Position numbers: made by a program. 64,000 nt of DNA. Source: Zootoca vivipara (taxonomy: Eukaryota). Shown here in pieces: positions 22,901-41,000 of this stretch. The DNA lies in assembly GCF_963506605.1 (NCBI RefSeq), contig NC_083281.1:66278001-66342000 (forward strand), read 5' to 3'. Each line of letters opens with the position of its first letter. The stretch's first letter is position 1.

Positions 22901-25900
22901 TTCGGCTCGTCATGGTGCCGCTGGCTCAAAGTGCAGGCGCCAGGCCAGGTGAACCGAGAGGCACCACGAAACCATTTCCCTCCTCCCTTATCCAAGGCAA
23001 CAGCCCTGCCAGGTGAGACCCGTCATACCTGCCTCCAGAGCCCCCAAACCTCTTGGGTACCCACCTTCTTTCCCCTCCATCCCCACCCCCGTTCGGCGTC
23101 CCCTCCCCACTCAGCAGACCTTCAGCTTCGAAGGCGGAAACCTCCCGCGCCCGCCACCGCCCTCGAGCGCAGGCCGGGCTGTCAGCTCGAACAAACGCGT
23201 TCCTGAGGGAGGGGGTGATGGGCGGGGGGGGAAGAGAAGTCTGGTCCTCCTCAGCCACCGTCGCAAAGGCCGCACCGGCAGCGCACATGCGCACTCTTCG
23301 CCCTCGCGCCCATCCTTCCACCGACTTCACGGCGGGCGGGCCGCGACGCCAGATAACGCAAGAGCACCCCTCCACGCGCACCCCCTGCCTTCTACCAGCT
23401 CACCGAGATCGGCTCGCCTGCCCCAGCCGCTGCTCCGCCTCCCAGCTTGCACCCATCGGGGCTAGGTACTCATCCTTTTGACCGTGGATTTCCGGCGGAG
23501 GTTGGGCACTCCGATTGGTCCGTACGCGGGCCAATCACAGGACAAAGCCCCTCCCCGCCACCCCGGCAGCCTTTTGTGACTACCATAGTAACGCCTCGAC
23601 GCCCCCTTGTGAGGCGAAGAGGGAAACGTGAAGCCGCCTCGGCCTGTTAACCCGGCGACGCCCAGTGCGTGGATCGTGATTGGACAGTGGACCTGTCCAC
23701 CTCAAGGGGAGGCGGGCAGGAAAAAGAGGTGGGTGCGTTCAGGATTGACGGGCGGGACAGCCAATTAATGAACGCAGATTGGTTGACGGGCGCGGAAGCT
23801 ACCAATGGACAAATGTGCGACGGGAGGAGAAAGGCACTCATAGGTGAGGCAGGAGAGGGTGGGACTAGAGAGTCGTGAGGCGGGGCCTGAAGTGTAGCCA
23901 AAGGGCTTGGTTCTCCTTCGCTATTCTGTTTTTCAGTACAGATTCAAGCGAATGAAAGCAGCTAATCGGTTGTTATGAACAGTAGCAGTTAATAACAACA
24001 AAATTATCATTAATCATTAATATTTCTAATTAACTATTGCTGATTATATTGCTTGGTGCCTCATTGCTTTTTATTAAAGAATTAACAATATTTGTTGTCT
24101 TTTTTTGCTCTAATTAAAAAATAACGAAGTTAATGTGCTTATTGTCTTTTATTGGTTTTGATTAAGTAAATAAAGAATAACATTGCTTATTGTATTCTAC
24201 TTGTTTTTAAATTAAATAATTAACACTGTTATAGTGGCTGTTGTATTCTATTGTTTTTAACTTACTGCAAACTGATGCTGGAAACAATGATGAAGGCCAG
24301 TATAAAAATCTTGGCAATTAAACAATAAATGCAAAGAGTACTGTATTCATCCTTTCATTATTTTTGATTATGTAGTACCTGGACTCCTAAGGCAAACTAC
24401 CAGAAGAAGGAATTGAGGAAATTCTTTGCTTTTCTCCCTGTTCTGAACTCAGCCAAGTGCTCCACACCAAGAGCTCCCAAATTGTGGGCCATGGACCACA
24501 TGTGGTCCACAAACTTCGTGTAGGTGTGGACCACGAAAAGTCCGCATTAAATATCTGTATTAATTTTTAATTGTATTTTTATTGCTTCTTTTATTTCTTG
24601 TATTTTATTGTATTACACATTGTACTCTGTATGCAAATTGTAGTACAACAAAATACAATATACCATAAGAAAAGTAGCAATAAAAATACAATCAAGAATC
24701 AACAAAGCACACAGAGTGGCTGTGACAACCCACAGGGTATAAATAAAAATTATTACTATTATTATTATTACTACTACTACTACAATAAATGCTACAGCAA
24801 GCAGAAATGTAATTAAGTGGTCCATGGGGGAGTTTTGGGAAACCATTACTCTCAGGGTCCCACAGATTCCACAAGCGAGTCTCACTTATCTTGGATTTTT
24901 CTCCTGTTAGAATTGTGTTTACCTCCTGGCTTCAGCCACCCCGTGTCAGAAAATCTCATTTTACAACCCTTTATTTAAAAATACCCAGTAATGGATTAGT
25001 CCTCAGGTTGCTCACAAAAAATTAAAATAATATATAAAATATCAAAAATAAAATATGAAACAATCAGAGCAGCATACAGAATAAAACTTGTCTCATAATA
25101 AATGGGTAAGTAATAAGCTTATTACTATTTATTTTTAAAAGTTGTTTAAAAGCAGTTTGTGGATAAAAAGGTATTCACCTGGCACTGTATGGCATAGCAG
25201 ATCAAGTGCTGGACTAAGGCGTGGGAAACCAAGATTCAAATTCCTGCTCAGACAAGAAACTTAGTGTCACAGTTTCTCAGCCTAGCCTACCTCACAGGAG
25301 AGTTGTGAGGATAAAATGGGGAGGAAGAGCTATGTACGCCACCTTGAGCTCCTTGGAGGAAAAATGGTATATGAATGCAACAAATAAAATAAGGACAGAA
25401 CAAGGTGAGCTTCTCTGAGGAGGTAGTTCCCAAGTGGTAGTTTCCTCTCCTTCACAACCACTTGCCCCATTCCATCTGATATTCTTGATATACAATGTCT
25501 AATAGTACATTACTGGCCCTAAACTGATAGTTGGCCCATCTGCTTGCTGTATAATACTGGAGCTTGCATCAGGTTCCCACAAAAGTAGAAATAAGTATCC
25601 CACCTAATAAAGCGCGCAACCCCAGAGTCGGTCACAACTGGACCTAATGGTCAGGGGTCCCTTTACCTTTTTAAAAGTAACATATTTGTGTTTTGGGGGA
25701 AAAGGCATGAAGCACAGCAGGTCTTCACAGTTCATCTGCTACCGGTAAGTATACTGGAATTTGCATAGATTGTTCTCTTCAAGATGAAATAAGAAGGTTA
25801 AGGATAAAATCAGAAAGAATTGACAGTCCAGAACAAATAAGATTGTTGACTGCATCTTGGCAGTCAGTATAGCAAACCCAGCTGGTTATGTCGATGGCAC

Positions 25901-38000: not shown

Positions 38001-41000
38001 CTCAGGTGGTGTGTCACTTCTAGAAAAAAACCATAATTTCATGATATTTATAGTTTAAATAACAAAAATGTATAATTGTAATATATTACTGTATTTAATA
38101 AACCAAAAACTAATTATTTAACCAAACCAAACCAAAAAACCCTTATTTATCACAAAGTGCTGTTGCTGAGCTTTTTAGGGGGAGCTGCTGACCAAAGTTT
38201 TGGAGGTTTTTTGGGGGGGTGCAAAAGTTGCTTTTTAATACCTTCGCTGGAACTAACAAGCAGCACCGACATAGTCTGCCAAAGCGCCAAAAAATGCAGC
38301 ACAGAATGGGTTAAAAATGAATGCTGTTACACCCAATCATCGTCTGCCAAAGCGCCAGAAAAAACATCACAGAAAGGGTTAAAAAGCCAATCTCTGGCTA
38401 CCAGCAACAACCAAAAAAATGATCCTGGTTTTAACAGCTTGTAGCTTGAGGAGGGGAGAACAAATGGGGGGGGGGACAACAATAGCGCGAATGGGCTGAT
38501 ATGGCGCGTGCAAGCAGTGAGGGCTCTGTGTGTCACGTCTGACACGTGTGTCATAGGTTTGCCATCACTGCTGTATGTGGAACAGCACACACTGAAGTTC
38601 TCTCCTGGTTTCATAACTGCAGCAAGCACCTTCTCAACAAAGAGCAAATAAACTGAACCAGGAAGTCCTAACACAGCTTCCTTCTTTGGTACAGTAAAAA
38701 AGAGAAGTTGGCTGATGAGATGTAAAGTGAAACTTGGTACTTTGGACATTTTGAGAAAGCAGAAAGGCAGCTGCCATGAAGTTCTGGAGACTCTAAAAAC
38801 CAATGCCAAGGAAACAATTTCTAGATTATTAACCAGGTCAGTATTTTATGTCTGTGATCTGTGGGTGGCCAGGTAGCGGTTAGTAAAATTAGTTAGGTAT
38901 TTGTTACAGAAATGTGATATATATATATGGGGAGAGGGGTGTGGGTGGGTGTGTTTCTGCCTTTTATTAATTCCTTTGTTAGCTAGATCACTGAATAATT
39001 GCTGATAGGAAGTGGGACCTGCAACAAAATATTGCAGTGCATCTTCATTTTCTAAAAGGAATGCATTTGCTCAGGCAGGGCCAGCGTCAAGACCCAGCAT
39101 GGTTGGGAACCTGGCCCAGCAGGGGACCCATTGACAAGCCCCATGCAGCTGCTCCTCCCTTTCATCATTGCAACCCACTTGCTCATTTGACTCTCACTCT
39201 GGCAAGTAGTGGCTAGAAAAAGACTTAACAGTAGTAGCTGCCACCAATCCTTGCTTGCTCTCTGGCCATGTCTGGGAAGAGCAAGATGGCAGAAACAGTG
39301 TGGCAGAGGAGGAGAGCAACTAGACACAGTGGCAATGAAGGGGCAAACTGACTCAAAAAGGGCCCCCTGAAGGTGCCCCTCCCCCCAAAAAACAGAACTT
39401 TTAACCAGCTCTGTGTTCAGGGTTCCTGCAAACCATTGGCAGTAAAAAGCTCAAGCAGGGGCTTTCCAGAAATGTCTGGCTGTCCTCTGCTGGAAAGCAG
39501 GATAATGGGCAATGTAGAACCTTGCATGGGTGTAACCAAGCTTTATTTTAATGGGGGCAGGCTTTATGTTATGGAGGACAGAACTGAGTTATCCGTGATG
39601 CAACCGATCAGTTAATTAAGTATTTTTTAATTTACTTACTTGATTTAGGGGGGCAGCTGCCCACACCCACAGAACCATGGAGTCTGATCCAGAACTCTAG
39701 AATGTGAGGCTACACTAGGATACATAGATTACTTTAGAGATGATTGCAAGTGTGAACATTAATGAGCAGGAGGTGGGAGGAGAGGGGGAGAGAAAAAAGG
39801 TCCCCAAGTTAGTAGGCTAACTGCTCTATTTTTCACATCTTAAAGGAGAAATACTTGTTAATGACCATTTGTGGAAGCTGCTGCTTTTGCAAGTTTAAAG
39901 CTGATTGTTTGCATTGATTTCCCCTCCCTCCATTCATGTGCCACCTATGCCAAAATGACAGGCTCTTTATTCATGCTGCTTTTGAACACCTTTGGAAACG
40001 TGGGCTTAGCTATTTGAACTATTGCAATTACTAGCATGTCACCGGTTCGGCGGCCGACTGTGGCTATGAAAGGTTGAAGGCTCGAACGTGAAACCTACTT
40101 TTAAAAATGGCTCGTTTTTCATCTGAAGTGGCTTTGGGGGGGGAGGGGACCTGGTCCCAGTTTGCTTAGTTAACTCACAATGACAGTTTGATGTTGTGTT
40201 ACATGTCAGGGGAAGAGACGTAGGTGGCTGTCTCTGCGTTCCACCCTACGGAGACACATTTATAACAACAAGCTGTCATGATCCGCACACCGAGGGGAGG
40301 GGAGGGGTGCCACCCTCTCCCTCACCTTTCTGTATGTCTGAATAGAGTCTTTGCTGGGTTTACTCATAGAGGCAGGGATCTGCCTCCACTCTCTATACGC
40401 CAGGATAGGGAACCCTTTTTCAAATCAGGGGCTGAGTTACCTTGTGGGCCACATGCTAGTGACAGACTTACGTTTGGTAGCTACATTCGTCCAGCTGCTA
40501 TTTTTCTTTTCTTCTCTGTACAATTACTAAGCTCTGTTTTCCTTGTTTGGGTATCTTTTGCTACTTGAAATATAAAATCACTTTTAAAAATGAAATGATG
40601 ACAGTTCAGTTCCTTGCCTGCCCTTCGCCAGCAAGTCCCATGGGGGGGTTGCAACAATCTGAAAATCAGAATTTAAAAGTTAAAGAGTACAGTAACAGGA
40701 GTAGGGTGGGCCCTGAAAACAAGTGTCAAAAGAGCTCCCTTTGCTTGCTTGCACTTAAGATAGTATATGTAGAGACTCATTTTTAGGGAAGATTTTTATG
40801 GGGTCCAGAGACATGGGGTAGGGCACAGACAAGTGGGAAAGTACACATGATTTGCCTGAACCCTTATATCCCAGCTCCATCACTGAAATAATCTGCAGGA
40901 GCATCATTGATCATTTCTCAAGCTGGCGAGATTCGTTTGACAACAACCAGAAACTGTGTTTTTAGGGTCATCAGTCCAGTAATGTGGAATACTCTGCAAA

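What the first reader, a model, noticed from the sequence alone, without database searches (positions are those of the whole stretch)
23900..38600. AKTIP is directly followed by SNX20: inferred inversion breakpoint at the ancestral NOD2 position
Seen: the order is RBL2(+), AKTIP(-), SNX20(+), with about 15 kb of TE-rich DNA between the AKTIP promoter and the candidate SNX20 promoter and no recognisable RPGRIP1L, CYLD or NOD2 ORF. Known (recalled human chr16 order): NKD1(+), SNX20(-), NOD2(+), CYLD, SALL1, TOX3, CHD9, RBL2(+), AKTIP(-), RPGRIP1L, FTO, IRX cluster. NOD2 has been reported missing from birds and some reptiles. Inference: one inversion of the CYLD-to-AKTIP block gives exactly the observed orientations. 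One breakpoint would fall where NOD2 lies head-to-head with SNX20, and the other at the edge of the RPGRIP1L-FTO-IRX regulatory block. The inversion may therefore be linked to NOD2 loss or relocation, and it places a housekeeping CpG promoter back-to-back with a leukocyte gene. It predicts NKD1 on the minus strand beyond the right end of the window and CYLD next to RPGRIP1L elsewhere.
Basis: partly seen in the sequence, partly recalled or inferred. Interest (0 to 1): 0.72.

Follow-up and report, generated by a model that had tools for sequence, protein, structure and literature searches.

The report
AKTIP–SNX20 junction with CYLD relic
In this wall-lizard-type genome AKTIP and SNX20 sit head to head, most likely through an old chromosome rearrangement that left one dead CYLD exon between them; NOD2 was lost much earlier and is not involved.

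Summary
The window is lacertid lizard DNA, not human: exons are 100% identical to Podarcis SNX20 and RBL2. The order RBL2(+), AKTIP(-), SNX20(+) is confirmed exon by exon. There is no N in the window. About 17.4 kb separates the AKTIP CpG island from the SNX20 start codon.

No NOD2 or RPGRIP1L trace appears in six-frame Pfam and PDB scans. At 33010-33141(+) lies one decayed CYLD USP-domain exon (E 6e-13 to 2vhf_A, 28 of 44 identical). It abuts a LINE tail. A conserved 128-aa ORF of unknown family lies at 30417-30803(+).

Boyle 2013 states that chicken and anole keep BRD7-NKD1-SNX20-CYLD-SALL1 without NOD2. The adjacency is therefore derived, and NOD2 loss came first, so the proposed causal link falls. 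A single CYLD-to-AKTIP inversion fits the orientations but does not predict a plus-strand 3' CYLD exon here. That points to a duplicative or multi-step break. The reciprocal junction and other lizard genomes could not be examined. Interest is modest.

The parts
2..526 (+). RBL2, last two coding exons (2-130; 356-523, with the stop at 524-526)
   Evidence: Translation and splice sites (donor GTAAAT after 130, acceptor TTTCAG before 356). The last exon is 100% identical to Podarcis raffonei RBL2 isoform X2, E 1.9e-26. There is also a weak PDB hit to an RBL1 C-terminal peptide, 5tuv_C, E 0.78.
3492..15827 (-). AKTIP coding exons: 15827-15786 (ATG), 15177-14968, 12079-11828 (one aligned stretch; I take it to hold an intron), 8943-8854, 8759-8658, 8069-7965, 6060-5998, 3599-3492
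   Evidence: tblastn of named reptile AKTIP proteins P0127, P0125 and P0123 against the window. Exon 14974-15174(-) hits AKT-interacting protein at 85-87% identity, E about 1e-27 (151 proteins at E<=1e-5 among 182 candidates).
22751..24000 (.). CpG island, presumed AKTIP promoter and non-coding first exon (inferred)
   Evidence: four overlapping 500-bp windows with GC 0.56-0.68 and CpG o/e 0.61-0.94. The position upstream of the AKTIP ATG exon is what suggests the promoter. No transcript data.
30417..30803 (+). Conserved 128-codon ORF of unknown family (ATG 30417, TGA 30801-30803, acceptor-like ctctgcag ending at 30402)
   Evidence: 8 relatives at E<=1e-10 among 1.84 billion representatives (93% identity for one, 45-63% for seven, all 105-194 aa). 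Alignment A1 has the invariant block HDILS. No Pfam family. AlphaFold model disordered, pLDDT 50.
32193..33009 (+). 5'-truncated LINE fragment ending in a (TTA)n tail (32980-33011)
   Evidence: Positions 32692-33011 match a second copy at 9254-9788(+) at 81-83% identity. TRF reports (TTA)n. The family name (L2-like) is recalled only: Pfam gave no hit and the Atlas was inconclusive (score 0.82). The 5' boundary is approximate.
33010..33141 (+). CYLD pseudo-exon (USP domain, includes the active-site His region); a GT donor is kept at 33137-33138
   Evidence: 2vhf_A 'ubiquitin carboxyl-terminal hydrolase CYLD', E 6e-13, 51 bits, query 51-94 against chain 272-315, 28 of 44 identical. The same stretch is the only CYLD hit in six whole-frame PDB searches. 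Nucleotides.
32166..32192 (+). Possible 5' continuation of the same CYLD exon (window reads DWV*RQVCI, with an in-frame TGA), just upstream of the LINE
   Evidence: A lead from memory only. A PDB search of 32121-32222 gave no CYLD hit, only a chance hit at E 0.05. Not shown.
41166..41325 (+). Repeat just upstream of the SNX20 start exon, with a BovB-like ORF2 tail
   Evidence: Self-BLAST block repeated up to 4 times in the window. The translation resembles the ORFs at 46803-47150(-) and 52473-53285(+). The family name is recalled.
41391..43860 (+). SNX20 coding exons: 41391-41552 (ATG), about 42183-42377 (the alignment overshoots the exon ends), 43195-43857, with the stop at 43858-43860
   Evidence: the last exon is 100% identical over 221 aa to Podarcis muralis SNX20 (P0001); tblastn of P0001 gives 92.6% for exon 1 and 100% for the last exon.

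Best explanation
The AKTIP(-)|SNX20(+) adjacency is a real, derived gene order in a lacertid lizard. It arose after the lacertid line split from iguanians. A rearrangement joined the 5' flank of AKTIP to the 5' flank of SNX20. The simplest form is an inversion of the CYLD-SALL1-TOX3-CHD9-RBL2-AKTIP block.

The break was not a clean cut. A copy of one 3' exon of CYLD was left, or copied, on the SNX20 side. It then decayed and took a LINE insertion or abutment.

NOD2 had already been lost in a much earlier ancestor, so the break did not remove it.

Shown: gene identities, strands, sequence contiguity, the CYLD relic, and the absence of NOD2 and RPGRIP1L signal. Inferred: that the event was an inversion, its extent, its timing, and that the relic is a scar of the break.
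For: Gene order and strands were confirmed exon by exon. There is no N in the 64 kb. [quoted passage not shown] Phrynosoma locus tags for SNX20 and RBL2 are 16 apart.

The CYLD exon relic lies at 33010-33141(+), E 6e-13. A stray CYLD piece landing by chance in the 17.4 kb next to CYLD's ancestral neighbour is very unlikely in a genome of gigabase size (size recalled, not from a call), so a local origin is the natural reading. The relic is old and unconstrained: it shares 28 of 44 residues with human CYLD, whereas the two CYLD sequences in PDB share 39 of 43 over the same stretch.

In Drosophila, inverted duplications of genes at inversion breakpoints are common: 17 of 29 inversions (Ranz 2007, PMC1885836, abstract read).
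Against: No other vertebrate genome could be searched, so neither the reciprocal CYLD|RPGRIP1L junction nor the order in other lacertids, teiids or amphisbaenians was seen.

The relic is a 3' exon on the same strand as SNX20. If CYLD had the human orientation, the simple inversion model, even with staggered breaks, predicts only 5'-side CYLD sequence on the opposite strand. At least one extra step is therefore needed.

Only one CYLD exon was detected in 6 of 6 frames searched. The anole statement rests on a 2013 assembly and on text I read without the figure. Locus-tag spacing is indirect. Sequence without N does not exclude a chimeric contig.
Confidence: 0.55

Rival explanations
1. The adjacency arose by a route other than one inversion: nested or overlapping inversions, a transposed block, or breaks tied to the lacertid karyotype reshuffle. 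CYLD would have been turned or partly duplicated first.
For: The plus-strand 3' CYLD exon is not predicted by the single-inversion model. In Podarcis raffonei RBL2 lies on a 93.6-Mb sequence, whereas in nine other squamates the RBL2 row lists a longest sequence of 23-50 Mb. This fits large-scale fusion or reorganisation in lacertids.
Against: One inversion already explains the order and strands of all three genes. No second junction was seen. The size of the sequence a gene lies on says nothing about local order.
Confidence: 0.25
2. The CYLD piece is unrelated to the break. It was carried in by 3' transduction from a LINE sitting in a CYLD intron, or by another random duplicative insertion.
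For: The CYLD homology starts exactly where the LINE's (TTA)n tail ends, and it lies on the same strand as the LINE. No target-site duplication around the LINE alone was found.
Against: A random landing next to CYLD's ancestral neighbour is very improbable. The match begins inside coding sequence, at the codons read as P and C that align with the P and C of CYLD. That would put the source LINE inside a coding exon of a working gene. Nine codons upstream of the LINE may continue the exon, but that is from memory and untested (one search gave no CYLD hit).
Confidence: 0.12
3. Assembly artefact: a chimeric contig joins two unrelated places somewhere between 24 and 41 kb.
For: Contiguity could not be tested with reads or Hi-C. 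The interval holds repeats and microsatellites, which are places where joins can go wrong.
Against: There is no N anywhere in the window. GC content is even across the interval, 0.42-0.44. An old CYLD relic next to SNX20 is what real history would leave, not what a mis-join would create.
Confidence: 0.07
4. One reading: the inversion breakpoint fell at the NOD2 position and is causally linked to NOD2 loss or relocation.
For: No NOD2 signal in the interval. The break lies in the old SNX20-CYLD gap, where NOD2 once sat.
Against: NOD2 is absent in frog, anole and chicken while SNX20-CYLD stays intact in chicken and anole. [quoted passage not shown] The loss is therefore older than the break.
Confidence: 0.03

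Closest known systems
Evolutionary inversion breakpoints with duplicated gene fragments (staggered-break model; Ranz et al. 2007, PMC1885836)
   Same: Two genes that are apart in outgroups are joined head to head, and a non-repetitive fragment of a gene from the breakpoint neighbourhood sits at the junction.
   Different: Only one junction was seen here. The fragment's strand and exon identity do not fit the simplest staggered-break geometry if CYLD had the human orientation. The model was worked out in Drosophila, not in reptiles.
Unprocessed pseudogene fragments (single-exon relics of partial gene duplication)
   Same: There is significant similarity to one coding exon, a splice donor is kept, neighbouring exons are missing, conserved residues are lost, and a retroelement abuts it.
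   Different: The parent CYLD gene of this genome was not available, so the extent of the duplicated DNA and its age could not be measured.
NOD2 loss in sauropsids and amphibians (Boyle et al. 2013, PMC3791470)
   Same: NOD2 is absent here, at the SNX20-proximal locus.
   Different: In chicken and anole the flanking cluster is otherwise intact. Here the cluster itself is broken, which is a later and separate event.

Membership tests
Lineage-specific inversion breakpoint | Adjacency of genes that are not adjacent in outgroups | tested here: met
   The window shows AKTIP|SNX20. Chicken, anole and mammals have SNX20 beside NOD2 or CYLD (text and legend only). Phrynosoma locus tags for SNX20 and RBL2 are 16 apart.
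Lineage-specific inversion breakpoint | Gene strands fit a reversal of the intervening block | tested here: met
   The strands RBL2(+), AKTIP(-), SNX20(+) equal the reverse of the recalled human order after inverting CYLD..AKTIP. The human order of RBL2-AKTIP-RPGRIP1L is recalled, not taken from a call.
Lineage-specific inversion breakpoint | Reciprocal junction (CYLD beside RPGRIP1L) in the same genome | not testable with these tools
Lineage-specific inversion breakpoint | Assembly contiguity across the junction | tested here: inconclusive
   No N in the 64 kb. No reads or Hi-C to test for a chimeric contig.
CYLD-derived unprocessed pseudo-exon | Significant similarity to CYLD coding sequence | tested here: met
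   2vhf_A at E 6e-13, 28 of 44 identical; E 2e-10 in the whole-frame search.
CYLD-derived unprocessed pseudo-exon | Genomic (intron-flanked) rather than processed copy | tested here: met
   The match ends at a GT donor (GATG|GTGAAT). No neighbouring CYLD exon is fused to it (one matched stretch).
CYLD-derived unprocessed pseudo-exon | Not part of an intact gene | tested here: met
   No other CYLD exon in 6 of 6 frames of 23801-38799 against PDB. No CAP-Gly or UCH family in Pfam. A motif scan of the whole window found only this piece.
CYLD-derived unprocessed pseudo-exon | A functional parent CYLD elsewhere in the genome | not testable with these tools
NOD2 gene or relic | CARD, NACHT, NOD2 winged-helix or LRR coding sequence | tested here: not met
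   None in the six frames of 23801-38799 (Pfam; PDB, which I recall holds NOD2 chains) or of 38798-41391 (Pfam). A relic decayed for hundreds of millions of years would escape these tests.
RPGRIP1L gene or relic | C2 or RPGR-interacting domain coding sequence | tested here: not met
   The same six-frame scans gave no such family or chain. Short exons outside domains would be missed.

The most novel reading that the evidence does not exclude
The break that joined AKTIP to SNX20 was duplicative, by staggered breaks or replication template switching, and left a copy of CYLD's USP-domain exon at the junction. Because that copy points its 3' end at SNX20, CYLD had either been turned round beforehand or was copied in reverse. 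The lacertid stem would then have seen at least two nested events at this spot, at the edge of the SALL1/TOX3/IRX regulatory blocks. The conserved, unannotated 128-codon ORF at 30417-30803 would be a squamate-restricted small gene that marks the AKTIP side of the junction. That would place the fusion point between about 30.8 and 32.2 kb.
Probability: 0.25. Interest if true: 0.45.

Novelty: new member of a known kind. Interest (0 to 1): 0.3.

Why it matters
If the order holds up, this is a base-level view of an old reptile rearrangement junction with a datable scar, the CYLD pseudo-exon. It lies at the border of gene-regulatory blocks (SALL1, TOX3, IRX) that are otherwise kept together across vertebrates (gene list in PMC3436827). 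It would let one ask how such blocks tolerate a break, and by what mechanism the break was made. It also removes a tempting but wrong story, that the break explains NOD2 loss. The small conserved ORF may be an unannotated squamate gene. None of this would much surprise a specialist: lineage-specific inversions and breakpoint relics are common.

Tried and rejected
I repeated it with stops read as X.

(2) Pfam on the plus frames of 1-10001 found no RB family. RBL2 was then shown by an exon search.

(3) Rfam at gathering scores gave 0 hits, and ARAGORN gave 0 tRNA-like SINE heads.

(4) A His-run scan for an NKD1 terminal exon found only microsatellite translations and two short runs in the plus strand. 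NKD1 is not shown in the window, so that prediction is untested.

(5) Small ORF: Pfam gave only one weak hit, N-SET at E 0.071, below the cut-off. The Atlas returned only acidic-tail look-alikes (0.91, RIO1 on 36% of members). AlphaFold gave pLDDT 50 and no secondary structure, so no fold search was made. I considered from memory that it might derive from CYLD or NOD2. I dropped the idea because neither PDB nor Pfam matched.

(6) The PDB search of the putative 5' half of the CYLD exon gave no CYLD hit.

(7) No target-site duplication was found around the LINE.

(8) The Atlas on the LINE ORF was inconclusive.

(9) The listing of cluster members could not be run. I had hoped to compare accession order of RBL2, AKTIP and SNX20 across squamates.

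(10) Literature searches found no paper on this junction:
- AKTIP + SNX20: 2 papers.
- NOD2 + SNX20 + CYLD + synteny: 1 paper.
- NOD2 + Podarcis: 5 papers.
- Podarcis / synteny / chicken chromosome 11 / Anolis: 63 papers held at least 3 of the 4 terms, 15 listed.
- GGA11 / Lacertidae / squamate / synteny: 67 papers held at least 3 of the 4 terms, 12 listed.
- PMC13005343 mentions none of NOD2, CYLD, SNX20, AKTIP or RPGRIP1L in its main text.
Supplements were closed and may hold gene-order tables.

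
Full report
WHAT THE WINDOW IS

The 64 kb contain no N and have about 44% G+C. The DNA is not human.
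- The last SNX20 exon (43195-43857) is 100% identical over 221 residues to Podarcis muralis SNX20 (153 proteins at E<=1e-10 among 455 candidates; the next best are other squamates at 75-88%, and mammals are at 54-62%).
- The last RBL2 exon is 100% identical to Podarcis raffonei RBL2.
- The first SNX20 coding exon is only 92.6% identical to the P. muralis protein.
I therefore call the source a lacertid lizard close to Podarcis and go no further.

I searched the spliced genes exon by exon. I left out the step of joining exons into a spliced model. Full-length identity to database proteins therefore stayed unchecked.

THE OBSERVATION

RBL2 ends at the left edge on the plus strand. Its exons are 2-130 and 356-523, with the stop at 524-526.

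AKTIP lies on the minus strand. tblastn with named reptile AKTIP proteins places its coding exons at 15827-15786, 15177-14968, 12079-11828, 8943-8854, 8759-8658, 8069-7965, 6060-5998 and 3599-3492. One exon alone finds AKT-interacting protein at 85-87% identity. A CpG island at 22751-24000 is the likely AKTIP promoter; this is inferred.

SNX20 lies on the plus strand, with coding exons at 41391-41552, about 42183-42377 and 43195-43857.

The gap from the CpG island to the SNX20 start codon is about 17.4 kb.

WHAT IS IN THE GAP

I read all six frames of 23801-38799 with stops as X.
- Pfam gave nothing above noise: four families at E 0.076-0.65, all far below their cut-offs. The six frames of 38798-41391 gave none at all.
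- PDB searches of the three minus frames gave 0, 0 and one chance hit.
- The three plus frames gave 0 hits, a CYLD hit, and one chance hit.
So there is no NOD2 (CARD, NACHT, LRR) and no RPGRIP1L signal. A relic several hundred million years old would not be seen by these tests.

The ORF at 32860-33180 matches the USP domain of human CYLD (2vhf_A) at E 6e-13. Query residues 51-94 align to chain residues 272-315, with 28 of 44 identical. The other three hits are one further CYLD-like set (3wxe, 3wxf, 3wxg), labelled 'Uncharacterized protein'. I recall these as a fish CYLD but did not check.

In window coordinates the stretch is 33010-33141 on the plus strand. It ends at a GT donor (GATG|GTGAAT), so it is a genomic exon copy and not a processed one. 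It is the only CYLD piece found in six of six frames. A motif scan of the whole window found no other.

Over the same columns the two CYLD sequences from PDB share 39 of 43 residues, while the window shares 28 of 44 with human CYLD. The copy has therefore drifted without constraint for a long time. With recalled squamate neutral rates of roughly 1-2 per billion years per site, I put its age at tens of millions to well over a hundred million years. This is a rough inference, not a measurement.

The CYLD homology begins exactly where a LINE fragment ends. The LINE runs from about 32193 to 33009 on the plus strand and ends in a (TTA)n tail at 32980-33011. It matches a second copy at 9254-9788 at 81-83% identity.

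Nine codons just upstream of the LINE (32166-32192; the window reads DWV*RQVCI) look to me like the continuation of the same exon, which would mean the LINE split a dead exon. That rests on memory. A PDB search of that short piece found no CYLD, so it is a lead only.

A second feature is a 128-codon ORF at 30417-30803(+). It is preceded by an acceptor-like site and a start codon in good context, and ends in a TGA that is not at a splice donor. It has 8 relatives among 1.84 billion representatives, all 105-194 aa long: one at 93% identity and seven at 45-63%. The conserved core has the invariant block HDILS. It has no Pfam family, no meaningful Atlas neighbour, and a disordered model. It may be an unannotated small squamate gene. 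Its meaning for the junction is unknown.

'TE-rich' is not established. Self-comparison marks 10.7% of the interval as repeated within the window, against 9.2% for the whole window. That is only a lower bound, because no repeat library was available.

IS THE ADJACENCY DERIVED?

Boyle et al. 2013 (PMC3791470) write that NOD2 is absent from frog, anole lizard and chicken. [quoted passage not shown] I read passages of the abstract, results, discussion and the Figure 1 legend, not the figure itself.

In the GenBank annotation of Phrynosoma platyrhinos, the locus tag of SNX20 is JD844_000436 and that of RBL2 is JD844_000452. They are 16 gene models apart. In the window's arrangement they would be two apart. 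This is indirect evidence.

SNX20 was therefore next to CYLD in the squamate ancestor, and AKTIP|SNX20 is a later state on the lacertid line.

In P. raffonei, RBL2 lies on a 93.6-Mb sequence. In nine other squamates the RBL2 row lists a longest sequence of 23-50 Mb. This fits the known large-scale reshaping of lacertid chromosomes (recalled).

MECHANISM

Take the human order, partly and partly recalled: NKD1(+), SNX20(-), NOD2(+), CYLD(+), SALL1(-), TOX3(-), CHD9(+), RBL2(+), AKTIP(-), RPGRIP1L(-). Reversing CYLD..AKTIP gives exactly RBL2(+), AKTIP(-) | SNX20(+) when read on the other strand.

That model predicts no CYLD DNA at this junction. Even the staggered-break version would leave only sequence from the CYLD 5' side, on the strand opposite to SNX20. 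(Staggered breaks leave inverted duplications; in Drosophila 17 of 29 inversions show them: Ranz 2007, PMC1885836, abstract.)

The relic is a 3' exon on the same strand as SNX20. One of three things must be true:
- CYLD had been turned beforehand, so that its 3' end faced SNX20 and a staggered break left a copy of that end behind.
- The piece was copied in during repair.
- The history has more steps.

LINE 3' transduction is a rival for the relic. It would require a chance landing beside CYLD's old neighbour and a source LINE inside a coding exon, so I rate it low.

NOD2

Genomes that keep SNX20-CYLD already lack NOD2, so the loss came before the break. The proposed link between the inversion and NOD2 loss or relocation is not supported.

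WHAT STAYED OPEN

- The CYLD|RPGRIP1L junction, NKD1 to the right, the order in other lacertids and their nearest outgroups, and the parent CYLD locus were therefore not examined.
- The accession-order test could not be run.
- Contiguity rests on the absence of N only.
- Supplementary files of the papers were closed and might hold gene-order tables.
- The searches found no description of this junction.

VERDICT

This is a real-looking, derived gene adjacency in a lacertid, best read as an old rearrangement junction that carries a CYLD pseudo-exon scar. It is a new instance of a well-known kind of event. Interest is modest, and the NOD2 angle should be dropped.

Noticed in passing
window 30417-30803 (+): A 128-codon ORF conserved in 8 representative clusters (45-93% identity, all 105-194 aa, none part of a longer protein). 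It is acidic and predicted disordered, with no known family. It may be an unannotated small squamate gene, perhaps transcribed divergently from the AKTIP CpG island.
   Followed up: partly
window 57251-58250: A second CpG island (GC 0.50-0.68, CpG o/e 0.65-0.72), 13 kb downstream of SNX20, with no recognisable coding exon in the long ORFs around it. It may be an orphan promoter or the start of an unidentified gene.
   Followed up: no
window 52222-53285 (+), 46803-47150 (-), 41166-41325 (+): Reverse-transcriptase-like ORFs that end in the same ...RRGRQRTRWLD...SAWRALVHG... tail. I recognise these from memory as BovB/RTE-type LINE copies, typical of squamates. No tool confirmed the family name.
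   Followed up: no
window 35714-35880 (+); 33308-33355; 35027-35071: A 57-bp minisatellite (3 copies, 82% match), (AC)24 and (AAT)15 inside the interval.
   Followed up: no
window 524-3492: RBL2 and AKTIP are convergent, with only about 3 kb between their stop codons, so their 3' UTRs may come close or overlap.
   Followed up: no
row P0261: A Sphaerodactylus townsendi UniRef entry with RB-family Pfam domains (PF11934, PF01858, PF01857) is named 'Tubulin folding cofactor A'. This looks like a mislabelled database record.
   Followed up: no
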